A stretch of DNA of 64,000 nt from an uncultured Planctomycetales bacterium (GCA_964489065.1 CAZAXH010000002.1:120099-184098); one strand, 5' to 3'. Positions 27,681 to 50,333 are shown, numbered from the stretch's first letter. Notes: generated by a model not told the origin, from the letters alone. Translations and numbers: made by a program.

Positions 27681-27861
27681 AAAAGCCCGAAATCCGGTGA
27701 GTGAAGATCCGGCCATCAGGCCTCCCCGAGCATTCCTCTTAGGACAACCGTATCGATAGAACGACGTTGGGCTTTCAATTTGAAGGACACCGGGCTTTGG
27801 GCCGTCGGAGGCTTCTCTCCGAAGGGCGCTTTGCCGGTGACGGATATCCTTTAATAAACAC

Positions 27862-27890
27862 TTGACAAAAACGCATGCGTGGCATATTAT
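27862..27890 (+). promoter_or_regulatory. sigma70-like promoter TTGACA-N17-TATTAT immediately upstream of the DUF134 gene
   Basis: Exact -35 hexamer, 17-nt spacer and near-consensus -10. The -10 ends ~6 nt before the ATG at 27897, implying a leaderless or near-leaderless mRNA. Confidence 0.5.
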
Positions 27891-27896
27891 TGGCAT

Positions 27897-28250: not shown

Positions 28251-28277
28251 ATCTTTTAATTTTCTGCAAAGGAGGAG

Positions 28278-30788
28278 ATGGGGATGATTGATACACTTAT
28301 TGCCTTTGCCCTTAGAAAGCCCAAGATCATTTTTGCCGTAACCGTTTTGGCGGTCGTGGCGTCTTTGGCGGCGTTCTTCCGGGTTAAGGTGGACACAGAC
28401 CCGGAGAATATGCTCCCGGAGAATGAGTTTGTCCGTGTTTTTAACCACGAGGTAAAAAAAGAATTCACGATCTATGATTATGTCGTCCTGGGGGTCGTCA
28501 ATGAGAAGGATCCGGACGGGGTTTTTAACCCGGCTACTTTAGAGAAGATCTACCGGATTACGGAGGAGATCAAGACTATTGACGGGGTTATCGCCTATGA
28601 GCTGATGAGCCTGGCTAATAAGGATGATATCGAACAGGCCGGCCCGGGGACCCTCAGTTTCCGCTGGCTGATGGGGCCGCCTCCCTACACGGCGGCGGAG
28701 TCTCAACGCATTAAAACGCGCGCCTTGGAAAATCCGATGTTTTACGACACGCTCATTTCGCGCGACGGCAAGGCCCTGTGTATTTATGTCCCTATTCAAG
28801 AGAAGAACATGAGTTACCGCGTCGCCAAGGCCATCCAGAAAATTATTCAAGGGTATCCCGGAGTGGAGCAATATCACCTGACGGGACTACCGCTGGCGGA
28901 GGACGCGTTCGGCGTTGAAATGTTCTGGCAGATGGGGATCTCCGCGCCGCTGGCGGTTTTGGTTATTTTCCTGCTGATGTGGTGGTTTTTCAAACATGTC
29001 ATTCTGGTCCTGATGCCGCTTGTGATGGCCGTTGTCGTGGTCCTGATCACCATGGGGCTTTTGGTCGGTCTGGGTTTCCCGATCCATATTATGAGTTCGA
29101 TGATCCCTATTTTCCTTTTGCCGATTTCCGTGCTGGATTCCATTCACATTTTGAATGAATTCTTTGAGAAGTACCGCACCTTTAAAGACAAGAAAAAAAC
29201 GATTTCCTATGTGCTGCATGAGCTCTACCGCCCGAATCTCTTCACCTCGTTAACGACGGTAGCCGGTTTTTTTTCCCTGTCTTTTGCCCCTATCCCGCCG
29301 GTCCAGGTCTTCGGGATTGCGGTGGCTTTTGGAGTCGCTCTGGCCTGGGTTTTGACTGTTTTGTTGATACCGGCTTATATCGCTCTTCTTGATGAGAGCA
29401 AACTCGGGGATTTTGGCGTGCATGAGGATGATCTTAAGCAAGGCGCATTGAGCCGCGCCCTCGCCGCCTGGGGGAGATTTACAGTCAAACACTGGAAAGA
29501 GGTTTTATCCGGATCGGTGGCCGTTGTGGCCCTGTCCCTTTACGGGATAATGCATATTGAAATCAACGATAATCCGACCAAATGGTTTAATAAGAAGCAT
29601 CCTATCCGGGTCGCGGATAAAGTGCTTAACGACCATTTCGGCGGTGTTTACAGCGTGTACCTGGTCATGGAAGCCAAAGATAAAGAGGCCCAGGTTTTCC
29701 AGGAGCCGGCGATGTTGCGTTATATCGAAGGGCTGCAGCAGTCCCTGCAGGAGAAAGGGACGGTCGGGAAATCAACTTCGCTGGCGGATGTCACGAAAAA
29801 AGTCTATTATGAACTTCTGGGGGGCGATAAAAAGAACAATATAATCCCTCCGACAGCCCCGGCCGTGGCGCAGACGCTTATTTCATTCGAGAATTCGCAT
29901 AAACCCGATGACCTCTGGCATTTTGTCGTCCCCGACTATTCCAAGGCCAACGTGTGGCTTCAGCTGACGTCCGGCGACAATAAACAAATGGCGGCCGTGG
30001 TGAAGCAGGTGGGCGAATACGTCCAGGCGCATCCGGTCCCGTTTGAGGTGACGTACCACTGGGCCGGGCTGACGTATATCAATATGGTCTGGCAGGACAA
30101 AATGGTGGTGGGGATGCTGGTGAATTTCCTGGGAAGTTTTTTAATCGTCCTTTTTATGATGATTGTGCTTTTCAAGTCTCCGGTCACGGGGCTGGTGTCG
30201 ATGCTCCCTCTGACGATCACCATTCTTTTCATTTACAGTTTGCTCGGCTTCACGGGAAAGGAGTATGACATGCCGGTGGCCGTGCTGTCGGCGTTGACGT
30301 TGGGGTTGGCCGTTGATTTTGCCATTCATTTTATTGAGCGCGCCCGCGCCTTTTACGCGGAGAATAAAAACTGGCCCAAAACGGTTGAAGGCATGTTTGG
30401 CGCCCCGGCTAGGGCGTTGATTAAAAACGCGCTGGTGATCTCGATCGGCTTTTTGCCTCTTTTTGCTTCGCCGCTGGTTCCTTATAATACGGTAGGGTTT
30501 TTTATGTTTATGATCATGCTGGTTGCCAGCATCGTTACGCTGATGACCTTGCCGGCGCTTATAACCGGTTTCCCATGGCTTGTGTTTGAAGAAAAGAAGA
30601 CAAAGGCCATCTGTTCGTGCCGGAATTGTGTTTTGATGTCGGGCATTATCGCGGCTACAATAGCATACGTCCTGTTGGGCTACGATCTGGCCCGGCTCAA
30701 TGTCACGACGATTATTTGCGTGACTGTCGTCGTGGTTTTGTCCGGCGTGTGTTCCTTTGTGTCGCGGCAGAAGATGTGCCCAAAATGA
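28278..30788 (+). CDS. MMPL/RND-superfamily exporter (HpnN-like)
   Basis: 836 aa with two 6-TM bundles, each preceded by a large periplasmic loop. RND/MMPL-type TM motifs. Confidence 0.8.
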   Translation: MGMIDTLIAFALRKPKIIFAVTVLAVVASLAAFFRVKVDTDPENMLPENEFVRVFNHEVKKEFTIYDYVVLGVVNEKDPDGVFNPATLEKIYRITEEIKTIDGVIAYELMSLANKDDIEQAGPGTLSFRWLMGPPPYTAAESQRIKTRALENPMFYDTLISRDGKALCIYVPIQEKNMSYRVAKAIQKIIQGYPGVEQYHLTGLPLAEDAFGVEMFWQMGISAPLAVLVIFLLMWWFFKHVILVLMPLVMAVVVVLITMGLLVGLGFPIHIMSSMIPIFLLPISVLDSIHILNEFFEKYRTFKDKKKTISYVLHELYRPNLFTSLTTVAGFFSLSFAPIPPVQVFGIAVAFGVALAWVLTVLLIPAYIALLDESKLGDFGVHEDDLKQGALSRALAAWGRFTVKHWKEVLSGSVAVVALSLYGIMHIEINDNPTKWFNKKHPIRVADKVLNDHFGGVYSVYLVMEAKDKEAQVFQEPAMLRYIEGLQQSLQEKGTVGKSTSLADVTKKVYYELLGGDKKNNIIPPTAPAVAQTLISFENSHKPDDLWHFVVPDYSKANVWLQLTSGDNKQMAAVVKQVGEYVQAHPVPFEVTYHWAGLTYINMVWQDKMVVGMLVNFLGSFLIVLFMMIVLFKSPVTGLVSMLPLTITILFIYSLLGFTGKEYDMPVAVLSALTLGLAVDFAIHFIERARAFYAENKNWPKTVEGMFGAPARALIKNALVISIGFLPLFASPLVPYNTVGFFMFMIMLVASIVTLMTLPALITGFPWLVFEEKKTKAICSCRNCVLMSGIIAATIAYVLLGYDLARLNVTTIICVTVVVVLSGVCSFVSRQKMCPK

Positions 30789-30881
30789 TCCCCGGCCCAT
30801 GGGCCGGAAAGATTCTAGGCGAGGAGTCTGATAAAAATTTCACGAAAGATGTGTGTCGTTGAAAACGGGAAAGGAGGAGAT

Positions 30882-31667
30882 ATGAAAAAGTTTTTTGTCC
30901 TGTTGGTTCTGTGTTTGGTTGCGGGTACCGTGTGGGGCCAGGAACTGACCGTTGATGAGATCATCACCCGGGCGAATAACCGTTCGTATTATCAGGGAAA
31001 GGACGGCAAGTCCAAGGCCATGATGGTGGTCACGGATGCCCAGGGCCGCACCCGCCAGCGTCAGTTGACGATTTTGAAGCTGAATATCCAGGAGGGCGGC
31101 GACCAGAAGTATTTTGTTTATTTCCACAAGCCCAATGACGTTAAAGGCATGAGCTATATCGTCTGGAAACATGCCGGTCAGGATGACGACCGCTGGCTCT
31201 ATCTGCCGGCCATGGACCTGGTGCGCCGGATCGCCGCTTCCGACAAGCGTTCGAGTTTTGCCGGAACGACGTTTTTGTATGAGGACATTTCCGGTCGGGC
31301 CATTGATCTGGACACCCATGAACTGGCCGCCGGCGACACCGAGAATTATGTCATCAAGAATGTGCCCAAGGACGCCGCGGCTGTTGAGTTTTCATATTAT
31401 ATGCTGAAAGTGGACAAAAACACCTTTGTCCCCATGATGGCCGAGTATTACGACAAATCCGGCAAGCTCTACCGCACGATCGAGGCCCTGGAGGTCAAAG
31501 ACATTCAGGATTACCCGACGATCACAAAGATGAAAGCCACGGACTTGAATGCGAATTCCCACACGGTTACGGAATTCAGCGAGGTGACGTACGACGTGGG
31601 GTTAACGGACGATATCTTCACCGAACGGTTCCTGCGCAACCCGCCGCCGCAGTGGCTGAAGGAGTAG
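30882..31667 (+). CDS. LolA-like outer-membrane lipoprotein-sorting family protein
   Basis: Signal peptide, ~260 aa and a beta-rich sequence. Co-located with an MMPL transporter, as is typical for this family. RBS AGGAGG lies before the ATG at 30882. Confidence 0.55.
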   Translation: MKKFFVLLVLCLVAGTVWGQELTVDEIITRANNRSYYQGKDGKSKAMMVVTDAQGRTRQRQLTILKLNIQEGGDQKYFVYFHKPNDVKGMSYIVWKHAGQDDDRWLYLPAMDLVRRIAASDKRSSFAGTTFLYEDISGRAIDLDTHELAAGDTENYVIKNVPKDAAAVEFSYYMLKVDKNTFVPMMAEYYDKSGKLYRTIEALEVKDIQDYPTITKMKATDLNANSHTVTEFSEVTYDVGLTDDIFTERFLRNPPPQWLKE

Positions 31668-31671
31668 CGGG

Positions 31672-32949
31672 ATGCGGCGCGCGGTTTTTATCGGCTTATT
31701 TTTTTTAATTTCCGCCGCCTGCGCGCAGGCGGCGGATCTCCCCGAATGGCACGGGTTCGTCGAGCAGGCATACGGGGGCAGGCTGAGCGATGATTCGCTG
31801 ACCAAGCACGGGGGGTATAACATGCTTGAGCAGCGTCTGCAGTTGAAAACCCGTTACTATATTACCGGGGACAACGCGCTGTCCCGCTGGAACAGCGTGG
31901 TGACGTACAAAGGCGATTTCCTCGTGGATGAGTATTTCGGGGGCAGCGGTTCTTATGAGGTGCGCGAATGCCATTTCGCGTTCCGCCCGGCCAGCCTGAT
32001 CGACGTCAAGGCGGGCCGGCAGGTCTTGACGTGGGGCACGGGGGATTACCTTTTTATCAACGATTTGTTCCCCAAAGATTACGTTTCCTTTTATATCGGC
32101 AGGGATGACGAATATTTAAAGAAACCTTCCGACGCCCTGCGCATATCCGCGTATCCGGCCCTGGCCAATATTGATTTTGTGGTCATCCCCCATTTTACGC
32201 CCAACACCATGCCGGAGGGAGACCGGCTTTCTTTTTTCGACAGTTTTCAGGGAGGAATCGCGGGCCGGGCAAGCGACCGTAACGCCGTCAAACCGGCTTT
32301 TCAGGCGGAGAATACGCAATACGCGCTGCGTGTTTACCGGACCTTCGGCAGCCTGGAAGGCGCGTTGTATTATTACCGCGGCTTTGACCCTTCGCCGCGC
32401 AGTTACCTGGACGAGGCCAACCGGCAGCTTTTTTATGAGCGGCTGGACGCGTACGGTGCGAGCGTCCGGACGCCCTGGGCCGGGGGGATAGGCAGCATGG
32501 AGGTGGGGTATTACCGTTCGCGCCAGGACCCGGACGGGACGAACCGCCTTATCGAGAATTCCATGTTCAAGGGAATGGCCGGATATGAAAAAGATCTGGG
32601 GAATGATCTTAAAATCGGGGGGCAATATCTATATGAGCAAAAGCTCGATTACTCCGCGTATAAGGCCGCGCTTCTTCCCTACGACTATTTTTGGGATGAA
32701 CGCCGGCATCTCCTGACCCAGCGGGTGATCAAATTTTATAAGAACCAGACCGTGATGCTGGGGCTTTTTAATTTTTGGTCGCCGTCGGACAGAGACGGGT
32801 ATGTCCGGGTGTCATGCGCTTATGACATATCCGATCAATGGAAGCTGGTGGCCGGGGTCAATATCCCGTGGGGGGAGGATAGGATCACGGATTTCGGCAT
32901 GATGGAAAAAAATAAGAACGCGTTTGTGCGGGTGCGCTATAGTTTTTAA
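31672..32949 (+). CDS. putative outer-membrane beta-barrel protein (DUF1302-like)
   Basis: Signal peptide (AACAQA), alternating beta-strand pattern and a C-terminal aromatic residue (...VRYSF). Its gene neighbourhood is with the MMPL and LolA-like genes. Confidence 0.4.
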   Translation: MRRAVFIGLFFLISAACAQAADLPEWHGFVEQAYGGRLSDDSLTKHGGYNMLEQRLQLKTRYYITGDNALSRWNSVVTYKGDFLVDEYFGGSGSYEVRECHFAFRPASLIDVKAGRQVLTWGTGDYLFINDLFPKDYVSFYIGRDDEYLKKPSDALRISAYPALANIDFVVIPHFTPNTMPEGDRLSFFDSFQGGIAGRASDRNAVKPAFQAENTQYALRVYRTFGSLEGALYYYRGFDPSPRSYLDEANRQLFYERLDAYGASVRTPWAGGIGSMEVGYYRSRQDPDGTNRLIENSMFKGMAGYEKDLGNDLKIGGQYLYEQKLDYSAYKAALLPYDYFWDERRHLLTQRVIKFYKNQTVMLGLFNFWSPSDRDGYVRVSCAYDISDQWKLVAGVNIPWGEDRITDFGMMEKNKNAFVRVRYSF

Positions 32950-32953
32950 TCTC

Positions 32954-32980
32954 CGCGGGAATTTCCCGCCTTTATTTAAG
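32954..32980 (+). terminator. rho-independent terminator after the outer-membrane protein gene
   Basis: GC stem GCGGG/CCCGC with a short loop, followed by CTTTATTT. Confidence 0.5.
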
Positions 32981-33139
32981 GCGGGGATGAGAGCCGGATC
33001 CGGAAATGGAATTCTGGGACAACGATTAGCCCTGCAGGGCTTGAGACAGCAAGTTCCGCTCCTGTGAAGGCGTGGAAATCGGATGCCGTCGGATTGTTGA
33101 GTTCGGGCGGTGTTTTCTGTGAGGAGAGGAGATGATATT

Positions 33140-36302: not shown

Positions 36303-36519
36303 AAAGCCGGGATTGAATTTCACGAATTATTTTTTACCCGCGTGTGTTCCTTTCCTTAAATCTTTGAAAGTAATAAAGTTAATTCTAATCCAAATCTTGC
36401 TCTTATTCATAAGGTATGATATATTTAATTTACCCTTTCAAATCACCCTGTCCCAAGATTTTTGACAAATCTTGTCTTATCTCATTCTATAATTTTTTAA
36501 AAGCGGGAGGAAAACCCAG

Positions 36520-39500
36520 ATGATGAGTTATTTCCGGAATTGCCGTAACCAGTGGTCTTACAAACTTCTTGTGTCATTTGTCAGTTATTCTTTTGTGGCG
36601 GGACTGATCCTGCCTCCTGTGACGCTTTTGGCCGCTGAACCTCAAAAAGGGATTCTCGGCCTGCCGATGCCCGGGTCAATGGTGCTGAAAAGCGACGTTT
36701 ACACCCCGGCATGCCTGAAAGGCATTAAGATTGACCCGCAGAATCCTTTGAAATTTGATTTTATTATTGATTCCGGCAAAGACGAGTTGACAGGGCAGGC
36801 CCTGGAAGAAGAGGCTAGCAAGCTGATTAAATATTTTTTGGCGACCCTGACGATTCCCGAAGAAGACCTGTGGGTGAACCTTTCCCCATATGAAAGCGAC
36901 CGGATCATCCCTGAAGGCTTTGGCCTTACGGAGATGGGCCGGGACCTTCTGTCCCAGGATTACATGCTCAAACAGCTTGTGGCGTCTTTGATTTATCCGG
37001 AACAGGATTTGGGGCAGGAATTCTGGCAAAGAGTGTATGACCGCGCGGCCAAGGAGTACGGCACAACCAATATCCCGATCAACACGTTCAATAAAGTGTG
37101 GATCATTCCGGAGGACGCTTTGGTCGTCGAGCATAACGGCAGCGCTTTTGTCGTGGACAGCCATTTGAAGGTGATGCTGGAAGAAGACTATCTCGCTTTG
37201 GAAAAGAATCTGGCCAATCAGAAACTCGGCACGACCAAGATCACCGAGGATTACGTGAAAACGTTAAGCAAGGTCTCTTCGGATGTGGTCCGGGAAATCC
37301 TTCTCCCGGAGATTGAAAAAGAAGTGAACGAGGGGAAAAATTTCGCCAAGCTCCGGCAGATCTATAATTCCATGATTTTGGCCACCTGGTATAAACAGAA
37401 CCTGCGGGCGACTCTCCTGGGCCAGGTGTATGTGAATAAAGGGAAAATCAAAGGGGTGGATGTTGATGACCGGGAGATAAAACAAAAGATTTATGAGCAG
37501 TATCTGGAAGCCTTCCGGAAAGGTGTTTATAACTATATCCGGGAAGATTATGACCTGGCGTCGAAACAGGTCATCCCCCGGAAATATTTTTCCGGCGGTT
37601 TTGACGCGTCTGCCATGTCCAGCGCGGTCCGGGCCGTGGATCTTCAGGATATCCCGCTGTCGTCTCCTTTGCGGGCGAGGGTGGATCAGGGCTTGAACAT
37701 TTCCAGCCCTGTGGTTCAGGTATCGGCGATTCTGGCGGAAAACCCTTCAGAAACCTTGGCGGCAAAGGGGGTTGTTACGGCAGAGGACATTACAACCCCG
37801 GTTGTGGTGGCTTCACCGGTCGTGGTTTCCCCGGAAATTTTGAAATTGTACCAGGGTGATATTGAGGAGTTGCAGCGTGTCGCTTTTGATTACGGCGACA
37901 GATCTTTTATCGCGGATGAGAACCGGGCGGTTGCCAAGAGTGAACTGGCCCGGGAGAGAAGAATTCAAGGACTGCTTCTTTTGGCTAGCCGGAACGCTTT
38001 GCCGTTTGAGATCGCGGAAAAGACCGGGACCCATTTGACGGATCTGGTGAATGTGGCGAATGAAATAGTCTCCGAGGGGTATAGTGAGCGGTTATCCCAG
38101 GCGTTGACCGAGGCCGAAAATGCACTTTTGCAAAATTTGAACGAAACGGAACTTACTGTTTTGTACCAGGCGGCTTTATCATCTCCGATCGCGGCAGGCA
38201 CAAGCCGGTTTCAGGATCTTAGTCCCTTCGGCCAGCAGTACGCGGAGTTGCGGGTTCGTCATTACCTCGGGTATGTGGTGGGGTCGCAGGGAAGAGGCGG
38301 GGTGACTGAGGCGCAGGCTGCGGCATTCCTGTCAAGGCTCAATGCGGATATATCACGCATGGTTCAGGCAGGTCGCACTTTAAAAGAAATCGGCGAGCAC
38401 TATTTCCCAGAATTGAGCGACGAAACCCGGGCCTTTGTTGAACATTCCCGGACCCAATATGAATTGAACAGAAAATCCAACGCCAGAGTCATGGCCGATG
38501 TCCTGATCGCGTCTTTGTCGGCTTCCGAAACGGACCGCTATGACAGGGCGACGATAAAAGCGGAACCGATAACTTTTCCTTCACGCTGGCCGCAACTGGA
38601 TGTTTTCAACGCTTTGGAAAGAATCGTGCGGGAGCGGGGCCAGGTGCTCGTCAGCCCTTCGTCGCCGGTTTCGCAGCAGTTTGCGCAGCTGTCGACTGAT
38701 GAAGTTGTGGGGGACCTAGCACGCAATTTCGGGCAATCATATGACACGATGATTTCTTTGGTGCCTTTTTTGGCAGAGACCACGGGGGTGTCGGAAGAGA
38801 GGATCCTGCGGGAGCTCAATGATGACACGTACAAGGTTTTTGCCAATCAGTTGTCCCAGATCTCGGAGATGGTCAAAGCCCGGGAGATTTTCCCGGAACA
38901 GGTGACTGTGCGGGTTTCTATGGAAGAGCCGGAGCAGGCGCCGATACAACTGGCGGGAGAGAGGACGGTCCCGAATGTCTTGTTCTGGCCCATGAAAGGC
39001 GACCCGTGGCAGTCCGGGCACATCTGGATGATCTTGGAAGCGATCATCAAGAACAAGATCGATAAGGTTGTGATCATGATCGACAACAGCGATCCGACCC
39101 GGAAACCGGATTTAAGTTCGTTGACGATCCGGGAGGCGTTTTCCCGGGTGATTTTTGACAAGTATTTAAAGCCGTTCGTCCAGTACACCACGCTCCCTAA
39201 AGAGATGCTGGAATTGTTTTCCGCGGATGGCGAAACGGTGATTTTTTATTTCGCGGAACTTAACGCGAACCAGCCCATGAACCTGTTTTACGGCGCGGGG
39301 TCGGACCACGCGAATTTGTATGCCCTGAAGAAGTCGGTAATTACGTCAGGCGATTTTACGAGCACGATCGCGGGGATCGAAAACGCGGCGGAGCGCCAGC
39401 GGATTCAGCAGATGTTTGCCAACGCGGGCTATATTGATGAACAAGGGCGGCCGATAACACAGGCGTTTGATTTCCTGGTCGAACGGTTGAAAGAACGGGG

Positions 39501-42500
39501 ATACCTGGATGAGAAAGGCAAACCGGTGAGCGGGAAGTTTACCGCCTATTATGAGGAAGGCAGGCCGGAAGAACTGTTGTTGAGCGATCTGCAAGATACA
39601 GGTTTGGAAACGGAAGACGCCCGGAGGATCGTGTATCAGGCGCTGTTCGCCCCGGATGTCCCGCGGAAGATTTATAACAAAATGACGGCCGGAGAACAGG
39701 GCTTAAGAGGGTTCCAGACCCGAAAAGATATCCAGAAGATGAACATTGTTTTCAGTCAGCGTCCGGGGGAAGGAATTGATGAGAAACTCCTTAAAGCGTA
39801 TGAGGAGAAGCTGGCGGTGGAGTTAAACGCGCGGGGATTGCCAAGGCTGGGCTTGTCAACCATTTTCCAGCCGATAGACGCGTCATCCACCGATGTGCGC
39901 AAGCGCGGGCAGTTCTGGAAGGTGCCATGGGTATCGCTGCAGGTGGCGAACGCGTTTAAGATGTGGGGGTATGAAATGGATGGGAACAGTTCCCAACAGG
40001 AAGGGCGGGCGGCGAATTTGAGGCAAATCGCGTCCCGAGTCCTGGCCGGTGACCTTAGCGAGGAAGCGCGGAGAGCCGCTTTGGATCAGATCCGGATGGC
40101 TGTGAGCGCGTTAAATGGGTTGGGTTTGGACGCTTTTGACAAATATGTCATGGGCGAGATTATAAAGGTAGAGGCTGCCTTAAGGACGCCGGCCGGCGAG
40201 CAGGAAATGGCGCGGTTGGAAGTTGTCGATGCCTGGCTGAAACAAGTACGGGGACTGATTTTCGCGCAGGCACAAACCCTGGCGGAGCAGGCCATGGATA
40301 ACCCTCTCCCCATCCGGCGGCAAGACCAGCAAAGGATGAGGGATTTACTGGTGGGCGGGCGGGTGGTGCCTCCTGCGGTGGTGAGGGAGTATTATCAGAC
40401 CCGTAGCCAGCGGGGCCTGTCGCTTGAGCCGGAGGCGATGGCCGTCGAGTTGGGGGTGACCCCGGCTCTCATCAGGGCCACTATGTCCTCTCCGGTCGTT
40501 AAAAAGATCCTTGTCGTGGATGACACGGAAGAAGTGAGGGATTTGAACAGGGATATTTTTAGTACCATCTTCTCCGGGGCGGAAGTTATCACGGCCGTGA
40601 ACGGCGAAGAAGGGTTGAGGACGTTCCGGGAGAATCCGGATATAGATCTCGTGGTTACCGATCTTGAAATGCCGGTGATGAACGGGGAGCAGATGGCCCG
40701 AACGATCCATTCCGAGCGTGGTGGTGTGCCGGTGGTCCTGGTTTCCGGGAATAACACAGAAGTGCAGCGGCTGTCCAAAGTGGATGAGGCCTCGGGATTG
40801 AAAAGCGGTCTTTTCACCGAAGTGATTCAGAAACCGTATCAGCTTAAGGCGATTATTGATTTAAAAGCCAGGTTGTCTTCTTCCCCTATTGTTAATAAGA
40901 TTTTGGTCGTGGATGATGTTGCCGGTATTAGAATGCTGTTGCAGGATGAATTGGGCGATATCTTTACCGAGGCTGAAATCATTACCGCTGCCAACGGGGA
41001 AGAAGGGTTGAAGATGTTCCGGGAGAACCCGGATATAGGCCTGGTTGTGACCGACCTGCAAATGCCGGTGATGAACGGGGAAGAGATGGCCAAAACGATC
41101 CGTTCTGAGCGTGATGTGCCGGTCGTTCTGATGACAGCCAACAGCCAGGAGATGACGCGGTTATCCGTCGTTGATGAGACATCGGGATTGAAGAGCGGGC
41201 TTTTTATGGATGTGATTGAAAAGCCTTACAGCTCTGACGCGATCACGGCTTTAAAAGATCAATTGTCCGTGTCGTCTCCGATTCAAAATAAAATTACCCT
41301 TACCGCGGAAGATATGGACGTCATCGGGAATATCCTGGATATTGACCGGGAAGTTTACGGGGATCAGGACGCCTGGGCTTATGCGGCGATCCGGGTTTTG
41401 CTGGCCAATCAGCTTCAGTATCCGGAGGCCATGCCGCCGTTAAGGCAGTCGGCCAGAATTTTAGGCATCAAATGGCAGGATGGAGCTTATCCGATAGAAG
41501 ACGCCATGTTCAGGCTGCTTCCGGCCAGTTTGGCGGTCGGTTATAATCTGCGGGATGTCAATGCGTACCGGACATTAAAAGAAGCCATTGATCTGGAACG
41601 GGCCGGTCAATTCGGCGATGCGGAGAATAAACTGGCCGAAATCGAAGGGGTTGATAATCAGAAGGCGGATCAGATATTGAAAATGGCGGCGGCGGTCTTT
41701 AATAATTCCGTCGCGTTATCCATTGACAATGACCTTGATCTGCAGATGACCATGCTGGGGGCCGGACGGGCGGAAAGAATGCCCCTCGTGGACTTCGTCG
41801 CCATTTCCCGCACGGCTCCGTTGCAGCTGACGGCGGAGAATAAAGAGAGGCTGAATGTCCTTCTCAACGAGGCCGAAACGGTTCTGCAGCGGGTGGAGAT
41901 TGAAACGGTTGAAGACCGTGTCGTCCTGGAGCAAATCCGTAAGGACGTGACGGGTATTTTAGAAGAAGCCGGCGCGATCTTTTCAACGTTCGCGCTTGAG
42001 GAGGAATTGAGAAAATCCACTCCGGCCGAGGAAGCGGTGCGGTTGCAGCAGGTCATAACTACGATGGCGGAGATTGAAGCCAAGCTGGGGCCTTCTCCGG
42101 CGGCGGATCTGGCCTCGGAGGAAGAGGTCTCTTCTCCGGTCCAGGTGGTGGAAAAAACAATGGATAAATTCCGGCTGCAGAACCGCGCCACCAGGGAGTT
42201 ATTAGACGGATTTGTCAACGGCTCGATTGAGAGAAACACCGCTGGCCGGGAGCTCAACCGGCTGCTTCGGACGGAAAGACAGGCTCGGGGCGTTTCCTCG
42301 GGAGGGGTGCTCAATTTCGCGCAGCGGTTGAATGGCCAATTAGAAGCGCAATCATCGCCCCTCGGCGGTATCAACCTGAACCCGGCTTTGTTAAACTTGC
42401 AGATCAAACGGGACAATAACGGCGTGCCGCTGCCTTTGCCGCAGCAGCCTGTCGGGGATATGAATATTGACGGATTTGTGCCGGTCATCATCAATATTAC

Positions 42501-42678
42501 GCCTATCCCGAATCTGCCGATGCTGCTGGGCAGAAACCTGGGGGACGCCCCGGCGCAGGGTGTTCCGGCTGCGGAGAAAGAAGGCCATAAGCAGGGACCG
42601 TCTCAACCATCGGAAAAAACAGGCGTCCAGTTTTTCTTTGATGATAAAGATCAGTTGAGCTTGTTGAATTACAATTAA
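36520..42678 (+). CDS. giant multidomain protein: signal/anchor, helical regions, divergent HxGH-type nucleotidyltransferase-like segment and tandem REC receiver domains
   Basis: Uninterrupted 2052-codon ORF with RBS GGGAGG 7 nt upstream. Hydrophobic N-terminus. Central FWPMKGDPWQSGH...TSTIAG resembles the cytidylyltransferase/NadD motifs (FDPxHxGH, ISSTxIR). Two REC domains carry canonical DD, D, S/T and K positions (ILVVDD...VVTDLEMPVMNG...VLVSG...QKPY). Confidence 0.85.
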   Translation: MMSYFRNCRNQWSYKLLVSFVSYSFVAGLILPPVTLLAAEPQKGILGLPMPGSMVLKSDVYTPACLKGIKIDPQNPLKFDFIIDSGKDELTGQALEEEASKLIKYFLATLTIPEEDLWVNLSPYESDRIIPEGFGLTEMGRDLLSQDYMLKQLVASLIYPEQDLGQEFWQRVYDRAAKEYGTTNIPINTFNKVWIIPEDALVVEHNGSAFVVDSHLKVMLEEDYLALEKNLANQKLGTTKITEDYVKTLSKVSSDVVREILLPEIEKEVNEGKNFAKLRQIYNSMILATWYKQNLRATLLGQVYVNKGKIKGVDVDDREIKQKIYEQYLEAFRKGVYNYIREDYDLASKQVIPRKYFSGGFDASAMSSAVRAVDLQDIPLSSPLRARVDQGLNISSPVVQVSAILAENPSETLAAKGVVTAEDITTPVVVASPVVVSPEILKLYQGDIEELQRVAFDYGDRSFIADENRAVAKSELARERRIQGLLLLASRNALPFEIAEKTGTHLTDLVNVANEIVSEGYSERLSQALTEAENALLQNLNETELTVLYQAALSSPIAAGTSRFQDLSPFGQQYAELRVRHYLGYVVGSQGRGGVTEAQAAAFLSRLNADISRMVQAGRTLKEIGEHYFPELSDETRAFVEHSRTQYELNRKSNARVMADVLIASLSASETDRYDRATIKAEPITFPSRWPQLDVFNALERIVRERGQVLVSPSSPVSQQFAQLSTDEVVGDLARNFGQSYDTMISLVPFLAETTGVSEERILRELNDDTYKVFANQLSQISEMVKAREIFPEQVTVRVSMEEPEQAPIQLAGERTVPNVLFWPMKGDPWQSGHIWMILEAIIKNKIDKVVIMIDNSDPTRKPDLSSLTIREAFSRVIFDKYLKPFVQYTTLPKEMLELFSADGETVIFYFAELNANQPMNLFYGAGSDHANLYALKKSVITSGDFTSTIAGIENAAERQRIQQMFANAGYIDEQGRPITQAFDFLVERLKERGYLDEKGKPVSGKFTAYYEEGRPEELLLSDLQDTGLETEDARRIVYQALFAPDVPRKIYNKMTAGEQGLRGFQTRKDIQKMNIVFSQRPGEGIDEKLLKAYEEKLAVELNARGLPRLGLSTIFQPIDASSTDVRKRGQFWKVPWVSLQVANAFKMWGYEMDGNSSQQEGRAANLRQIASRVLAGDLSEEARRAALDQIRMAVSALNGLGLDAFDKYVMGEIIKVEAALRTPAGEQEMARLEVVDAWLKQVRGLIFAQAQTLAEQAMDNPLPIRRQDQQRMRDLLVGGRVVPPAVVREYYQTRSQRGLSLEPEAMAVELGVTPALIRATMSSPVVKKILVVDDTEEVRDLNRDIFSTIFSGAEVITAVNGEEGLRTFRENPDIDLVVTDLEMPVMNGEQMARTIHSERGGVPVVLVSGNNTEVQRLSKVDEASGLKSGLFTEVIQKPYQLKAIIDLKARLSSSPIVNKILVVDDVAGIRMLLQDELGDIFTEAEIITAANGEEGLKMFRENPDIGLVVTDLQMPVMNGEEMAKTIRSERDVPVVLMTANSQEMTRLSVVDETSGLKSGLFMDVIEKPYSSDAITALKDQLSVSSPIQNKITLTAEDMDVIGNILDIDREVYGDQDAWAYAAIRVLLANQLQYPEAMPPLRQSARILGIKWQDGAYPIEDAMFRLLPASLAVGYNLRDVNAYRTLKEAIDLERAGQFGDAENKLAEIEGVDNQKADQILKMAAAVFNNSVALSIDNDLDLQMTMLGAGRAERMPLVDFVAISRTAPLQLTAENKERLNVLLNEAETVLQRVEIETVEDRVVLEQIRKDVTGILEEAGAIFSTFALEEELRKSTPAEEAVRLQQVITTMAEIEAKLGPSPAADLASEEEVSSPVQVVEKTMDKFRLQNRATRELLDGFVNGSIERNTAGRELNRLLRTERQARGVSSGGVLNFAQRLNGQLEAQSSPLGGINLNPALLNLQIKRDNNGVPLPLPQQPVGDMNIDGFVPVIINITPIPNLPMLLGRNLGDAPAQGVPAAEKEGHKQGPSQPSEKTGVQFFFDDKDQLSLLNYN
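40498..41280 (+). repeat. tandem in-frame duplication (~390 bp unit) encoding the two REC domains of the giant ORF
   Basis: Two consecutive units translate to near-identical receiver domains (KKILVVDDTEEV... vs NKILVVDDVAGI...). The mirrored spurious antisense ORFs at 40395..40817 and 40839..41141 reflect the DNA-level repeat. Confidence 0.7.
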
Positions 42679-42702: not shown

Positions 42703-42775
42703 AGTATAAAAACCCCTTTGGGCGGTTAGGTATCGAAGATGATGCTGAAACCCCAAGGGGGTTTTCTTTGTATAA
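42703..42775 (+). terminator. putative terminator hairpin after the giant ORF
   Basis: CCCCTTTGGG ... CCCCAAGGGGG inverted repeat with a large loop, followed by TTTTCTTT. Confidence 0.35.
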
Positions 42776-45836: not shown

Positions 45837-45919
45837 GCCGAAGTGGCGAAATTGGTAGACGCGCACGTTTCAGGGGCGTGTGGCCTTCGGCCATGTGGGT
45901 TCGAGTCCCACCTTCGGCA
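45837..45919 (+). tRNA. tRNA-Leu (anticodon CAG), class II with long variable arm
   Basis: 7-bp acceptor stem GCCGAAG/CTTCGGC, 3-bp D-stem with GG in the loop, anticodon stem CACGT/GCGTG with loop TTCAGGG and T-arm GTGGG-TTCGAGT-CCCAC. CCA is not encoded. Confidence 0.85.
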
Positions 45920-45982
45920 CTAATATAGTATTCAGGGGCTTGCCAAAGCCCCTTTTTGCTGAAAACAGGAAGGGGGCCAGGC

Positions 45983-47504: not shown

Positions 47505-48461
47505 ATGTTAATAGAAACATTTCAGGCGACGTTGATCGCGACGGTTCAAATCCTTTTGATGGCCGGGGTGGGGTTTGCCCTGGTCAAAACATCCCTCCTG
47601 GATGATCCCGGGCTGGATATGCTGTCCAATCTGCTGGTGAAGGTGTTCCTGCCGCAGATGATTTTTTATCACCTGACGCAGCATTTTCATTTCAGCGATT
47701 ACACGTACTGGTGGGGGTACCCGCTTTTGAGCGTCGGGATCGTGCTGGCAGGGGCCGGTGTGAGCCGGGTGCTCCTCATGTTTCACCGGGGGTGCCGGAA
47801 CCGGAGCCATTTCACCGCTTTGCTGGCGTTCGCGAATTACGGGTATATCCCGCTCATGCTGGTGGCGTCTTTGTTCGATGGAGAGCGGGCGGAGTCCCTG
47901 ACCGTCACGATTTTTTTGATGATCATGGGCTTTGACTTCGCGGTCTGGTCCCTGGGGGTGTGGCTTTTGACCAGCCATAAAGACAAAACCATTTACTGGG
48001 GGCGGGTGCTGAATCCGCCGTTTGTCACCACCGTGGCCAGCCTGCTGTTGATCATGCTGGGATGGCATCGCTGGGTGCCGCCGGCGGTGATCAAGCCCGT
48101 GAAGATGTTTTCCGACTGCGCCCTGCCGTTGTCCATGATCGTGACCGGCGGCAACCTGGCCAAGACCAACCTTCAGGCGGTCGATAAGACGGATATGCGG
48201 TATTTGATTTTCGGGAAGCTGATCCTGTTGCCGGCGCTGGCTTTGGCGGCGGTGAAGGCGTTGTCGCTCCCGTATGTCCCCGGGCTTATGGTGGTCATGC
48301 AGGCCGCGGTGCCCAGCGCGGTGTCCCTGTCGATGATGATCCGTTATTATAAAGTCGATTCGGAACTCATCAACCAGGGGATTTTCTGGGATTCCTTGAT
48401 CAGCGTTTTGACGATCCCCGTCGTGTTAACCATTTATAATTTTATCACGAATTCTTATTGA
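47505..48461 (+). CDS. AEC (auxin efflux carrier) family membrane transporter
   Basis: 318 aa arranged as 5+5 TM inverted halves, typical of AEC transporters. Confidence 0.75.
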   Translation: MLIETFQATLIATVQILLMAGVGFALVKTSLLDDPGLDMLSNLLVKVFLPQMIFYHLTQHFHFSDYTYWWGYPLLSVGIVLAGAGVSRVLLMFHRGCRNRSHFTALLAFANYGYIPLMLVASLFDGERAESLTVTIFLMIMGFDFAVWSLGVWLLTSHKDKTIYWGRVLNPPFVTTVASLLLIMLGWHRWVPPAVIKPVKMFSDCALPLSMIVTGGNLAKTNLQAVDKTDMRYLIFGKLILLPALALAAVKALSLPYVPGLMVVMQAAVPSAVSLSMMIRYYKVDSELINQGIFWDSLISVLTIPVVLTIYNFITNSY

Positions 48462-48922
48462 TCATGTCCAAACCGGTCGCCACGAATAAAAAAGCGTATC
48501 ACAATTATTTTTTAAGCCAGAACTGGGAGTGCGGGATTGAGCTTAAAGGCGGGGAAGTGAAGTCTGTGCGCGCGGGGCTAGTGAATTTCAAGGACAGCTT
48601 CGCGAAGATCGAAGACGGAGAGGTGTTTTTATACAACCTGCACATCAACCCTTATAAGGAAGCCAGTTACATGAATGAGGACCCGGACCGGGCGAGAAAA
48701 CTGCTCATGCACAAGAAGGAGATCCGCAAGATCGTTTCTGAAGTGGCGGAGCGGGGCAAGGTGCTGGTGCCGACAAAGATTTATTTGAACAATCGCGGTT
48801 TAGTTAAAATTGAACTCGCGCTGGGAACCGGGAAGAAGCTGTATGATAAAAGGGAGTCGATGAAGAAGCGCGATATCGAGCGGTCTTTAAGGCAGTCGTT
48901 GCGGGTGGGGAAACGCAGATAG
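48458..48922 (+). CDS. smpB: SsrA-binding protein
   Basis: Conserved SmpB sequence (NKKAYHNYFL...GIELKGGEVKS...LLMHKKEI) with a basic C-terminal tail. Confidence 0.9.
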   Translation: MIMSKPVATNKKAYHNYFLSQNWECGIELKGGEVKSVRAGLVNFKDSFAKIEDGEVFLYNLHINPYKEASYMNEDPDRARKLLMHKKEIRKIVSEVAERGKVLVPTKIYLNNRGLVKIELALGTGKKLYDKRESMKKRDIERSLRQSLRVGKRR

Positions 48923-48942
48923 CGGTTAGGGGCGGCGGGCAG

Positions 48943-48971
48943 TTGCAGTTGGGCGCGTTTGGGTATATAAT
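48943..48971 (+). promoter_or_regulatory. sigma70-like promoter TTGCAG-N17-TATAAT for ssrA
   Basis: Consensus -10 with a 17-nt spacer, ~30 nt upstream of the mature tmRNA 5' end. Confidence 0.5.
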
Positions 48972-49003
48972 TTGAATAGCTTTTTGCCGGAAAGATTTTA
49001 TAT

Positions 49004-49391
49004 GGGGGTGATTGGTCTCGACTTAAGTTGAGAGACCATAGGTGGCATGCCGAGGACGCCAGGTTGGCCTCGTTAATCATCCGGGCACAAAACAAATGGC
49101 ACTTACAGTGTTGTTGCCGAGGCCGAGGCTATTTTAGCCGAAGCCCAACCAGCCCTTGTTTAATTAAAAAACAAGGCCCTCTTATGAGCCAGGCCTGTGG
49201 GCTTATAAGAGGACATTCAGCAGGCTAGCCGCGGCCAGCGCCTTCGGGGCGGCGGCGAAACTTAAGGAGGATGGCCTGACACAGCCCTGTTTGCCGGGTG
49301 GTTGCAGGTGACACTTAAAGACAAACTACGCATGTAGAGGCTTATGGGAAGCAACTGAAGGACCGGGGTTCGATTCCCCGCACCTCCACCA
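49004..49391 (+). ncRNA. ssrA: tmRNA (ssrA, transfer-messenger RNA)
   Basis: 5' GGGGGUGAUUGG...GGUGGCAUGCCGAGG...GGCCUCG aligns with the E. coli tmRNA 5' region. 3' ...GGACCGGGGUUCGAUUCCCCGCACCUCCACCA forms the T-arm and acceptor with encoded CCA. Internal stop-containing hairpin CCCTTGTTT-AATTAA-AAACAAGGG. Sits directly 3' of smpB. Confidence 0.85.
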
Positions 49392-49399
49392 AAATTTTA

Positions 49400-49450
49400 A
49401 GGACTCGTTACTTATTGAGCTTCAATACGTGGCGAGTCCTTTGCTGTTTT
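49400..49450 (+). terminator. rho-independent terminator of ssrA
   Basis: 8-bp stem AGGACTCG/CGAGTCCT with a long loop, followed by TTTGCTGTTTT. Confidence 0.6.
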
Positions 49451-49703
49451 CAGGTGTGGCGGGGCCCGATCAGTGTCCATTTTTTATGACTTAATGCAGG
49501 AACTGAACAAAAAATCCTTGATATACGACGTTCCGGATAAGTGATATTACATGGCAAATGGATACCATTTTATAAAAAACAGGGCTATAATAATGAAAAA
49601 TCGGGGTAAAAATTGAATTATTCAAGAGGTAAAAAACAACGCCAACCAGCAAATGGATAAGTCGTATAATAATTGTTATGTGTAAAAATAAAAAAGGGGA
49701 AAT

Positions 49704-50228
49704 ATGGAAATAGCTATTGTTATCCTATTCATTGTAGGGGGGACAGCTTGTCCTTTATGGTTTTACCTTTTTAAGCATCTTTTTAATTTAAGACACAAAC
49801 TCAGCACTAATATTCGCGAAGAAGTTTATCCGGATATACATAAAACAGTGAATTTGTTGATTTCTCTATCTTCTGCCGCAATTGTATTGACATTTTCGAT
49901 CCTGCAATTTTTAAACCAGCATCCGATAAAATGTAAATATTTTATAATTACATCATGGCTTAGCTTTACATTAGTAGTTATATTTGGAATGGTAATATTA
50001 ACATTTTTATATATTTTTCGTGCACAGTATAAAGTTATGCTCCAGTGCATTAAGAAGGCGAAAGATGACCCTACTAGTGAAACTGCGGAAGATGCCATAA
50101 CAAGTATTAATAGTGTAATGGACAAGGATATTTCCCTTCATGTATTACTCTATATGCAATCTATATCTTTTGTCAGTGGAATTATTTTTTTGATGATTTT
50201 TGCAATTATAAACATAGGAAGCACATAA
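49704..50228 (+). CDS. small 4-TM membrane protein, unknown function (AT-rich islet)
   Basis: 174 aa with four predicted TM helices, a strongly AT-rich codon composition unlike the backbone, and RBS AGGGGA upstream. Confidence 0.5.
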   Translation: MEIAIVILFIVGGTACPLWFYLFKHLFNLRHKLSTNIREEVYPDIHKTVNLLISLSSAAIVLTFSILQFLNQHPIKCKYFIITSWLSFTLVVIFGMVILTFLYIFRAQYKVMLQCIKKAKDDPTSETAEDAITSINSVMDKDISLHVLLYMQSISFVSGIIFLMIFAIINIGST

Positions 50229-50333
50229 CAACCTACTGCAGCGGATGCCGCTCGGCACCTTCGGCAGCCTCGCGACACCGCTGAGTACGGTGCGTTAGCC
50301 GCTAGTCTGCAAATAGAAAGCAAAGGAAAATAT

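What the first reader, a model, noticed from the sequence alone, without database searches (positions are those of the whole stretch)
36520..42678. Giant 2052-aa ORF combining a secretion/anchor signal, an HxGH-type nucleotidyltransferase-like segment and two orphan receiver domains
This is a single uninterrupted 6.2-kb reading frame with a strong RBS. It has a hydrophobic N-terminal signal or anchor and long helical regions. Around 38,970-39,400 a segment reads VLFWPMKGDPWQSGH...ITSGDFTSTIAG. That aligns position-by-position with the (F/G)DPxHxGH and ISSTxIR motifs of NadD/cytidylyltransferase-type nucleotidyltransferases, with the first His replaced by Gln. The segment is followed by two canonical CheY-like REC domains with the phospho-acceptor Asp, Ser/Thr and Lys all in place. 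No histidine kinase or output domain is in the window. REC domains embedded in a multi-kilodalton, possibly exported protein next to an NTase-like core is not an architecture I can assign to a described family. A recurring 'SSP(V/I)' linker motif precedes several modules. The gene sits between housekeeping-like genes and an MBOAT acyltransferase pair, and could be a giant effector or surface protein.
Basis: partly seen in the sequence, partly recalled or inferred. Interest (0 to 1): 0.8.

Follow-up and report, generated by a model that had tools for sequence, protein, structure and literature searches.

The report
Omnitrophota exported modular cargo protein
The 2052-residue gene is real and intact, and it is one member of a huge, unannotated Omnitrophota protein family that places swappable enzyme and signalling modules (here a NadD-like nucleotidyltransferase and two receiver domains) between a conserved signal peptide plus N-terminal domain and a conserved C-terminal motif.

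Summary
The ORF 36520..42678 (+) is real. It is intact in three independent assemblies and under purifying selection along its whole length (overall dN/dS 0.15-0.16).

Both REC domains are canonical.

The architecture is not an orphan. aa 1-39 is a Sec-type signal peptide. aa 40-375 is a domain with no Pfam, NCBIfam or PDB match that defines 8,058 protein clusters. It sits at residue ~40 in nearly all of the 150 listed hits. Genome hits are MAGs labelled Omnitrophota, uncultured Planctomycetales or just 'bacterium', with many paralogues per genome. aa 1945-2010 is a near-invariant C-terminal motif.

Between these frames, paralogues carry different cargo: PGM, UDPGP, PGK, PGI, GGDEF, REC, HEAT.

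The 'SSP(V/I)' motif marks module joints. It is 20-fold enriched, and another lineage uses D-x-A-M instead.

Export and a handling role for the two frames are inferred. The destination and the NTase substrate are unknown.

The parts
36506..36510 (+). Shine-Dalgarno GGAGG, 9 nt before the ATG
   Evidence: Read directly from the sequence.
36520..36636 (+). Signal peptide, aa 1-39: basic n-region, h-region, PP breaker, LLAA|E cleavage-type site
   Evidence: The same n/h/c layout, ending in xSYAQ or AxA, is seen in the 60 paralogue N-termini inspected. It is the strongest hydrophobic peak, and no other TM-grade segment exists. Cleavage is inferred, not shown.
36637..37644 (+). Family-defining N-terminal domain (N-dom), aa 40-375
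37645..38658 (+). Spacer modules aa 376-713, delimited by SSP marks at aa 381, 395, 554 and 714
   Evidence: Shared only with close relatives. Their order is swapped in P0005. No Pfam or PDB hit. dN/dS is 0.15-0.19.
38659..40485 (+). Nucleotidyltransferase cargo module, aa 714-1322: N-terminal lead-in, NadD/NMNAT-fold core (aa ~818-1160) and a helical bundle (aa ~1161-1322)
38998..39021 (+). GDPWQSGH, the (H/T)xGH nucleotide-binding signature with Q831 in place of the first His; H834 is invariant
   Evidence: Other module homologues read HEGH, HVGH or HWTH at the same columns.
39340..39700 (+). Helical insertion of roughly 100-120 residues within the NTase core (about aa 941-1060), including the internal repeat GY(I/L)DExG(R/K)P
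Evidence: It is gapped or variable in the module alignment A1 and helical in the model. The boundaries are approximate.
39874..39903 (+). IDASSTDVRK, the true counterpart of the ISSTxIR motif
   Evidence: S1122 and R1127 are invariant in A1. The stretch aligned to 'dISSTkIR' of PDB 8aih in the profile search. It sits at a strand-to-helix turn in the model.
40486..40878 (+). Receiver domain 1 (aa 1323-1453); D1334, D1335, D1381, S1409, K1438
   Evidence: Pfam PF00072; alignment to CheY; dN/dS 0.16-0.18.
40879..41271 (+). Receiver domain 2 (aa 1454-1584); D1465, D1466, D1512, T1539, K1568
   Evidence: Pfam PF00072; alignment to CheY. It appears to be a tandem duplicate of REC1: the window's REC1 region matches REC2 of L001/L002 at 72-77% nt identity.
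41272..42351 (+). C-proximal helical spacer modules, aa 1585-1944 (SSP marks at 1585 and 1871)
   Evidence: Shared only with close relatives. No Pfam or PDB hit. dN/dS is 0.06-0.16.
42352..42549 (+). Family-wide C-terminal motif, aa 1945-2010: SSPLGGINLNPALLNLQIKRDNNGVPLPLPQQPVGDMNIDGFVPVIINITPIPNLPMLLG
   Evidence: A targeted BLAST with the motif found it in all 120 homologues retrieved with the full protein; whole-protein HSPs covered it in ~117 of 120. It lies close to the C-terminus in all. dN/dS is 0.07-0.08. No Pfam or NCBIfam hit.
42550..42678 (+). Variable, net-acidic C-terminal tail (aa 2011-2052) and stop codon
   Evidence: Median tail length in the family is ~27-30 aa, with net negative charge.
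42747..42765 (+). Terminator-like hairpin followed by a T-run
   Evidence: consensus scan only.

Best explanation
The gene encodes one member of an Omnitrophota-wide family of modular proteins built on a fixed frame. The frame is a conserved Sec-type signal peptide, a conserved ~335-residue N-terminal domain, a string of exchangeable cargo modules, a ~60-residue near-invariant C-terminal motif, and a short acidic tail.

In this member the cargo is:
- helical spacer modules;
- a NadD/NMNAT-fold nucleotidyltransferase module, whose conserved catalytic-type residues suggest it is probably active;
- a tandem pair of canonical receiver domains;
- further helical modules.

The modules are joined at a short peptide mark, (A/S)SSP(V/I).

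Proposed mechanism (inferred):
1. The precursor is exported through Sec and the signal is cut after Ala39.
2. The N-domain and C-motif are the common handling, anchoring or assembly elements that every family member uses. They place the cargo at the envelope or cell surface, or in an attached prey or host cell.
3. The receiver domains make the activity or assembly of the neighbouring module depend on phosphorylation.

Shown: gene integrity, the fold and domain assignments, the family frame, module exchange, and the punctuation motif.

Inferred: export, cleavage, the role of the two frame elements, catalytic activity, and regulation.
For: Integrity:
- An identical protein is present in a separate assembly (P0001), and an 88%-identical protein is on 4 contigs (P0003).
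- The syntenic loci L001 and L002 carry intact ORFs of 2049 and 2042 aa.
- dN/dS is 0.03-0.41 in every segment.

Frame:
- The N-dom is in 120/120 homologues. The C-motif is in all 120 by a motif-targeted BLAST (~117 by whole-protein HSPs). The middles are unrelated.
- There are 8,058 clusters. The N-dom is at residue ~40 and in a single copy in nearly all of the 150 listed hits.
- Genome scanning gave 541 confirmed stretches, with many per MAG and tandem arrays.

Cargo diversity: REC, PGM, UDPGP, PGK, PGI, GT5, GGDEF, HEAT and others sit behind the same N-dom.

Signal peptide: the n/h/PP/AxA layout is conserved among paralogues, and there is no other TM segment.

NTase:
- PF01467 passes its cut-off in P0069, which aligns to aa 814-938.
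- Weak but consistent NadD/PPAT sequence hits.
- 17 invariant residues, including H834, R861-K862, D929-H930, S1122 and R1127.

REC.

Module exchange at the marks:
- The block from aa 714 is duplicated in P0002, and the spacer order is swapped in P0005.
- HSP ends fall at ~714 and ~1322-1328.
- SSP[VI] is enriched 20-fold, and a D-x-A-M mark takes the same junction positions in another lineage.
- Codons at the marks vary synonymously.
Against: - Export is predicted from sequence features only.
- Much of the family's cargo (PGK, hexokinase, UDPGP, GGDEF, radical SAM, REC, this NTase) needs nucleotides or a kinase partner. These are not expected in a periplasm or outside the cell.
- No secretion or anchoring partner gene recurs next to family genes. 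The best recurring neighbour appears in 6 of 79 loci and is tryptophan-synthesis synteny.
- The N-dom model is of low confidence (pLDDT 62) and has no fold relative, so its role is a guess.
- The first His of HxGH is Gln in this sub-lineage. From general knowledge, PPAT and human NMNAT carry Thr at that position, so activity is not excluded, but it is untested.
- No histidine kinase was found nearby.
Confidence: 0.55

Rival explanations
1. Membrane-tethered cytoplasmic scaffold. The N-terminal hydrophobic segment is an uncleaved anchor and the cargo (NTase, REC and, in paralogues, glycolytic enzymes) works on the cytoplasmic face. There ATP, NTPs and histidine kinases are available. The N-dom and C-motif organise the proteins into membrane-associated metabolons.
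For: The family's cargo is of a cytoplasmic, nucleotide-dependent type. REC domains need a phosphodonor. West-Roberts et al. themselves doubted the extracellular prediction for glycolytic domains in the giant relatives. Nielsen and Lui read many long relatives as membrane-anchored with cytoplasmic bulk.
Against: The basic residues precede the hydrophobic core, and none follow it. With a single span this places the bulk outside. A helix-breaking PP and a small-x-small site are conserved across paralogues, as expected for signal peptidase I substrates. No second TM segment could return the chain to the cytoplasm.
Confidence: 0.25
2. Polyprotein. The (A/S)SSP(V/I) marks (D-x-A-M in another lineage) are processing sites. 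After export the chain is cut into separate modules (NTase module, REC pair, spacers) by a lineage-specific protease, possibly the N-dom itself.
For: The marks sit at independently defined module borders: aa 714, 1323, 1454, 1585 and 1945. They are conserved at the peptide level, not the nucleotide level. Two mutually exclusive lineage-specific versions occupy the same junctions. Post-translational cleavage has been proposed for the giant relatives.
Against: There is no protease fold or motif in the N-dom. 52 of 178 long family members scanned have neither mark. A short Ser/Pro-rich joint may simply be a linker. No cleavage data exist.
Confidence: 0.15
3. One reading: a unique giant effector in which a degenerate (inactive) HxGH nucleotidyltransferase remnant and orphan receivers form a one-off architecture.
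For: The first His of the signature is Gln. The query itself does not reach any Pfam NTase threshold. No kinase lies nearby.
Against: The module recurs in many paralogues with 17 invariant residues and dN/dS of 0.14-0.19. The frame is shared by 8,058 clusters. REC is common cargo in this family and in the giant relatives.
Confidence: 0.04
4. Assembly chimera, fused genes or a decaying pseudogene.
For: None found.
Against: The ORF is intact and collinear in three or more independent assemblies at 84-100% identity, with purifying selection in every segment.
Confidence: 0.01

Closest known systems
Omnitrophota long 'multi-enzyme' proteins (Archaeovorins of West-Roberts et al. 2023, bioRxiv 10.1101/2023.11.21.568195; 'multi-enzyme metabolic cluster' class of Nielsen and Lui 2026, bioRxiv 10.64898/2026.06.07.730766)
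   Same: They come from the same phylum and have the same cargo vocabulary: PGM, PGI, TIM, aldolase, GT5/starch synthase, REC, GGDEF, HEAT, radical SAM. Most carry a signal peptide and/or TM segments.
   Different: Those studies treat proteins of >=10,000 aa (or genes >20 kb), usually with many TM helices. This protein is 2,052 aa with a signal peptide only. The papers, as far as I could read and search them, do not describe the N-dom, the C-motif or the punctuation marks.
NadD / NMNAT nicotinate (nicotinamide) mononucleotide adenylyltransferases (Pfam PF01467 CTP_transf_like; TIGR00482)
   Different: The first His is Gln. A helical insertion of roughly 100-120 residues splits the core. A ~160-residue helical bundle follows. 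The module is embedded in a signal-peptide-bearing multi-module protein. It falls below the Pfam and NCBIfam cut-offs. The substrate is unknown.
CheY-like receiver domains of two-component systems (PF00072)
   Same: Both copies have the full set of phospho-acceptor pocket residues, and the Pfam score is well above threshold.
   Different: They are tandem receivers inside an apparently exported protein. There is no recognisable output domain of the classical kinds and no kinase in the neighbourhood.
Two-partner-secretion exoproteins (TpsA: signal peptide + conserved ~250-300-aa TPS domain + very large variable passenger). This is an analogy from general knowledge.
   Same: The logic is the same: a signal peptide, then a conserved N-terminal domain common to all substrates, then long variable functional regions.
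   Different: There is no homology. The Pfam scan of aa 1-400 found nothing. The N-dom is predicted to be mixed alpha/beta rather than a beta-helix. No TpsB/Omp85-type partner recurs next to family genes. TpsA proteins lack a conserved C-terminal motif of this kind.
Type IX secretion cargo (signal peptide + variable body + conserved C-terminal sorting domain). This is an analogy from general knowledge.
   Same: There is a conserved C-terminal element on otherwise unrelated, signal-peptide-bearing proteins that are present in many copies per genome.
   Different: The C-motif gave no match to any Pfam or NCBIfam model, which would include known C-terminal sorting domains. It is followed by a variable acidic tail. 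From general knowledge, T9SS is a Bacteroidota system.

Membership tests
Omnitrophota N-dom / C-motif modular family (unnamed; defined here) | Sec-type signal peptide directly followed by the ~335-aa N-dom | tested here: met
   aa 1-39 plus aa 40-375. The N-dom is 57-65% identical to 22 paralogues. phmmer places it at residue ~40 in nearly all of the 150 listed family members.
Omnitrophota N-dom / C-motif modular family (unnamed; defined here) | [quoted passage not shown] | tested here: met
   aa 1949-2004, followed by a tail of 48 residues.
Omnitrophota N-dom / C-motif modular family (unnamed; defined here) | Variable cargo between the two frame elements, exchanged as modules | tested here: met
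   The cargo is shared only piecewise with other members. There is a duplication in P0002 and an order swap in P0005.
NadD/NMNAT (PF01467, TIGR00482) | Rossmann-like nucleotidyltransferase fold of the HIGH superfamily | tested here: met
NadD/NMNAT (PF01467, TIGR00482) | (H/T)xGH signature | tested here: inconclusive
   The signature reads Q831-S-G-H834. The second His is invariant. The first position is His in other module homologues but Gln in this sub-lineage.
NadD/NMNAT (PF01467, TIGR00482) | ISSTxIR motif | tested here: met
   A-S-S-T-D-V-R, aa 1121-1127. S1122 and R1127 are invariant. The stretch aligned to ISSTKIR of PDB 8aih.
NadD/NMNAT (PF01467, TIGR00482) | Score above the curated family threshold | tested here: not met
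   The query has no PF01467 hit. TIGR00482 scores 16.1 bits against a cut-off of 112. PDB profile hits have E 0.09-1.7. Only the homologue P0069 passes PF01467.
NadD/NMNAT (PF01467, TIGR00482) | NaMN/NMN adenylyltransferase activity | not testable with these tools
   This needs an enzyme assay.
Response-regulator receiver domain (PF00072) | Pfam score above the gathering threshold | tested here: met
   102.7 bits against 30.2, in two stretches.
Response-regulator receiver domain (PF00072) | Acidic pair, phospho-acceptor Asp, Ser/Thr and Lys | tested here: met
   Both copies have them (positions).
Classical two-component response regulator | Cognate histidine kinase encoded nearby and a recognised output domain | tested here: not met
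   There is no HK among the 20 ORFs scanned in the window. No DNA-binding or other classical output domain was found.
Archaeovorin / giant Omnitrophota proteins | Gene >20 kb or protein >=10,000 aa, usually with multiple TM helices | tested here: not met
   The protein is 2,052 aa and its only hydrophobic span is the signal peptide. The definitions come from the papers read.
Anti-phage defence systems (PADLOC) | Significant match to a defence-protein model | tested here: not met
   The best hit has E 0.006 and 13.6 bits.

The most novel reading that the evidence does not exclude
The frame (conserved signal peptide, N-dom, punctuation marks, C-motif) is the signature of an undescribed, phylum-wide cargo export and assembly system. 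Omnitrophota would use it to send dozens of cytoplasm-type enzymes and signalling domains per genome out of the cell body, into a surface coat or into attached prey. The N-dom and C-motif would mediate translocation or head-to-tail assembly, and the punctuation marks would act as processing sites. The giant 10-150 kaa proteins of the phylum would then be the covalently fused end of the same system.
Probability: 0.25. Interest if true: 0.85.

Novelty: new variant of a known kind. Interest (0 to 1): 0.6.

Why it matters
Omnitrophota are ubiquitous, uncultured ultra-small bacteria suspected of predatory or parasitic lifestyles. Their long multi-enzyme proteins are a recognised puzzle.

This locus shows the puzzle has a simple, searchable grammar at ordinary gene size. 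One signal peptide, one unannotated 335-residue domain (8,058 clusters) and one 60-residue C-terminal motif bracket interchangeable cargo joined at short peptide marks.

That gives concrete handles for experiments:
- Where do cytoplasm-type enzymes, receiver domains and a NadD-like transferase go behind a Sec signal?
- What reads the two frame elements?
- Are the marks cleavage sites?

It also gives annotation pipelines a missing domain model. At present these proteins are named only by whatever cargo they carry: 'response regulator', 'phosphoglycerate kinase', 'UTP--glucose-1-phosphate uridylyltransferase'.

Tried and rejected
- Direct sequence searches of the NTase segment gave nothing significant: Pfam on the whole protein and PDB phmmer (best hit a thioredoxin at E 1.7). 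The fold assignment came only from a module alignment plus structure prediction.
- The profile search of the big protein database with alignment A1 returned 2 hits and missed the alignment's own members. This is a word-prefilter artefact and was discarded.
- The spacer modules aa 396-713 and 1585-1944 gave no PDB or Pfam hit.
- Looked for a conserved partner gene next to 105 family genes in 79 loci. None recurs beyond orthologous synteny.
- No paralogue of any part of the protein occurs elsewhere in the window.
- Defence-system reading rejected.
- A Tat signal was considered and rejected. Most paralogues lack a twin-arginine motif, and the query has none.
- A DNA-level recombination-site reading of the SSP marks was rejected because the codons differ.
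- A conserved extreme C-terminal '...LN' ending was considered. It is seen in only 20 of 174 members, so it is not a family feature.
- The Kizina et al. 2022 paper (PMC9004380) could not be read.
- A full-text search for the motif strings found no paper.

Full report
**1. The observation**

The frame 36520..42678 (+) is a single ORF of 2052 codons. GGAGG lies 9 nt before the ATG. A terminator-like hairpin lies 70 nt after the stop codon.

An identical protein exists in another public assembly. An 88%-identical, 2049-aa protein is found on four contigs and is labelled 'response regulator [Candidatus Omnitrophota bacterium]'.

Two loci are syntenic with the window: L001 (JAGOJP010000032, about 90% nt identity) and L002 (JAKQKX010000045, about 84%). 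They carry the ORF intact at 2049 and 2042 aa.

A Nei-Gojobori comparison gives dN/dS of 0.15-0.16 overall, with no segment above 0.41. The gene is therefore real, uninterrupted and under selection as one reading frame. Chimerism and pseudogene readings are rejected.

**2. Domains that can be named**

Pfam finds only two receiver domains (102.7 bits against a threshold of 30.2).

- REC1: D1334/D1335, D1381, S1409, K1438.
- REC2: D1465/D1466, D1512, T1539, K1568.

The two copies appear to be tandem duplicates. The window's REC1 region matches REC2 of the orthologous loci at 72-77% nt identity.

**3. The nucleotidyltransferase claim**

Single-sequence searches were silent.

The stretch aa ~714-1322 recurs as a unit in other proteins and is duplicated in P0002. 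One such homologue, P0069, passes Pfam PF01467 (cytidylyltransferase-like) at 27.4 bits against a cut-off of 21. That hit lies exactly where P0069 aligns to query aa 814-938.

A 15-sequence module alignment (A1) shows 17 invariant residues. They include P829, H834, R861-K862, G904-E905, N915, Y924, G927, D929-H930, D1046, R1081, S1122 and R1127.

The AlphaFold2 model built on this alignment is confident (pLDDT 88, pTM 0.85):
- Foldseek agrees (TM 0.68-0.75 normalised to the NadD targets).
- Weak sequence-level hits point the same way (PDB profile E 0.09-1.7, six of eight being NadD or PPAT; TIGR00482 E 0.009).

GDPWQSGH (aa 827-834) is the (H/T)xGH signature with Gln for the first His. Other module homologues read HEGH, HVGH or HWTH in the same columns.

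'ITSGDFTSTIAG' (aa 941-952) is the first helix of an insertion of roughly 100-120 residues that is absent or different in other homologues. The real ISSTxIR counterpart is IDASSTDVRK (aa 1119-1128), which also aligned to 'dISSTkIR' of PDB 8aih.

Is the enzyme active? The conserved residue set and dN/dS of 0.14-0.19 argue for function. From general knowledge, PPAT and human NMNAT carry Thr at the first signature position, so Gln is not disqualifying. The substrate cannot be inferred.

**4. What the whole protein is**

A BLAST of the query against its 120 best database relatives shows a striking pattern:
- All 120 share aa 1-~365 at 50-64% identity.
- All 120 share the C-terminal motif at aa ~1945-2005 by a motif-targeted BLAST, and about 117 by whole-protein HSPs.
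- The middle is shared only piecewise.

Behind the same N-terminal domain the relatives carry very different cargo (precomputed Pfam, counted by eye):

| Cargo | Approximate number of the 120 |
|---|---|
| Receiver domains | 16 |
| Phosphoglucomutase | 15 |
| UDP-glucose pyrophosphorylase | 13 |
| PGK | 6 |
| PGI | 6 |
| HEAT repeats | 6 |
| Starch-synthase GT5 | 5 |
| GGDEF | 3 |

Also present are TIM, enolase, GAPDH, aldolase, hexokinase, PPDK, glutamate dehydrogenase, NUDIX, PP2C, radical SAM and others. Many members have nothing recognisable.

An exhaustive phmmer of aa 40-375 against 1.84 billion cluster representatives finds 8,058 clusters at E<=1e-3 and 6,312 at E<=1e-30. In nearly all of the 150 listed hits the domain is single and starts near residue 40. 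The listed proteins are 420-5,312 aa long.

The 79 loci kept come from MAGs labelled Omnitrophota, 'uncultured Planctomycetales' or simply 'bacterium'. I suspect the Planctomycetales labels are mislabels, but did not test this. One MAG (JAJDCA01) contributes at least 14 copies among the best 80 loci. In 21 of 79 loci there are two to five copies in tandem.

The C-motif consensus is GGI(D/N)LNPALLDLQIKRDGNGVPLPLPQQPIxxMxIEGFLPVIINITPVxNLPLLLG. It is followed by a variable, net-acidic tail of about 30 residues. The N-dom and C-motif are the most constrained parts of the gene (dN/dS 0.03-0.08).

**5. The N-terminus**

Across paralogues the first ~40 residues keep the same layout:
- a basic n-region ending in Y-R/K;
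- a ~16-residue hydrophobic core;
- a PP helix breaker;
- a small-x-small site (xSYA|Q in most, LLAA|E here).

No other segment reaches TM-like hydrophobicity. This is the layout of a cleavable Sec signal peptide. Cleavage and export are inferred.

**6. The 'SSP(V/I)' motif**

The motif occurs nine times in the query, against about 0.1 expected from the family's composition.

In the family's variable regions SSPV is the most frequent 4-mer. Overall the motif occurs 1.0 times per 1000 aa against 0.05 expected.

Seven of the nine sites lie within ten residues of borders defined independently:
- the end of the N-dom (381, 395);
- the start of the NTase module, which is also the P0002 duplication breakpoint (714);
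- the REC1 start (1323);
- the REC2 start (1454);
- the REC2 end (1585);
- the C-motif start (1945).

The codons at the nine sites differ, so the constraint acts on the peptide, not on a DNA recombination site.

Family members without SSP marks are enriched for a different mark, D-x-A-M-(L/M). It occupies the same junctions, including the one just before the C-motif. The two marks are almost mutually exclusive: 36 proteins have >=3 SSP and no DxAM, 24 have the reverse, and none have >=3 of both. A further 52 have neither.

Module order also changes at these joints. The spacers are swapped in P0005 and a block is duplicated in P0002.

Whether the marks are linkers, modification sites or cleavage sites is open.

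**7. Context**

The gene stands alone between PyrE, Maf, an M48 peptidase and DUF192 upstream, and an MBOAT protein, an unassigned ORF, dihydrolipoyl dehydrogenase and an AEC-type transporter downstream.

Further genes in the window are housekeeping: Clp ATPase, RadA, CysRS, MetRS and alanine racemase.

No histidine kinase was seen among the 20 ORFs scanned. No gene family recurs next to family members in 79 loci.

**8. Mechanism and rivals**

My preferred reading, at about 55%, is an exported modular cargo protein. Sec export and signal cleavage come first. The N-dom and C-motif are then the common handling, anchoring or assembly elements, and the cargo acts at the envelope, at the surface or in an attached cell. 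Here that cargo is a probably active NadD-like transferase with twin receivers that gate it.

The main difficulty is that the family's cargo is nucleotide-dependent and of a cytoplasmic type. That keeps a membrane-tethered cytoplasmic scaffold alive as a rival (about 25%). The charge distribution, the conserved cleavage-type site and the absence of a second TM segment argue against that rival.

A polyprotein reading (about 15%) is compatible with either location.

**9. Relation to the literature**

West-Roberts et al. (bioRxiv 10.1101/2023.11.21.568195) and Nielsen and Lui (bioRxiv 10.64898/2026.06.07.730766) describe Omnitrophota proteins of 10,000 to 147,000 aa with the same cargo vocabulary. 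In the latter study REC occurs in 105 long proteins. Most of these proteins have signal peptides and/or TM helices, and the authors note the same localisation paradox.

Seymour et al. (PMC10066038) note giant ORFs >20 kb with few annotated domains.

I found no description of the N-dom, the C-motif or the punctuation marks. A full-text search for the motif strings returned nothing. Kizina et al. 2022 could not be read.

I therefore rate the finding as a new variant of a known kind. The phenomenon of multi-enzyme, signal-bearing long proteins in Omnitrophota is known. The compact frame and its grammar, and a NadD-fold module as cargo, are to my knowledge not.

Noticed in passing
window 48458-51560: smpB (48458-48922) is followed by a tmRNA gene (49004-49391). 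Next comes a low-GC stretch (GC 0.418 at 50-52 kb). Its 408-aa ORF (50334-51560) matches the PADLOC candidate defence family PDC-S54 at E 1.6e-133. This is probably a small island integrated at ssrA.
   Followed up: partly
window 27785-33139: A ~5.3-kb block is missing from the otherwise collinear orthologous locus L001 but present in L002. It holds an MMPL/RND-like 836-aa ORF (annotation by eye, not scanned), a LolA_like ORF (PF17131) and a 425-aa ORF with no Pfam hit.
   Followed up: no
L069 (JBFMEN010000057), 454-15818; also L056 and L057: There are tandem arrays of up to five N-dom family genes within 16 kb. This suggests local duplication as one source of the many paralogues.
   Followed up: partly
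P0005 and P0002, relative to query aa 434-738 and 714-1482: The two spacer modules occur in swapped order in P0005. The NTase-plus-REC block is duplicated in P0002, with the breakpoint at the SSP mark at aa 714.
   Followed up: partly
window 39427-39528 (aa 970-1003): Inside the NTase insertion there is a short internal repeat, GY(I/L)DE(Q/K)G(R/K)P(I/V), separated by a helix. It is conserved in the closest module homologues as (E)RGYL..(E/D)GK. Its role is unknown.
   Followed up: no
window 45837-45920: A tRNA-Leu(CAG) gene lies between the MBOAT-partner ORF and the dihydrolipoyl dehydrogenase gene.
   Followed up: no
family-wide (P0001-P0225): Database names for family members follow whichever cargo is recognisable: 'response regulator', 'phosphoglycerate kinase', 'glucose-6-phosphate isomerase', 'HEAT repeat domain-containing protein'. 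These annotations hide the common frame. They could also mislead metabolic reconstructions that count such genes as ordinary cytoplasmic enzymes.
   Followed up: no
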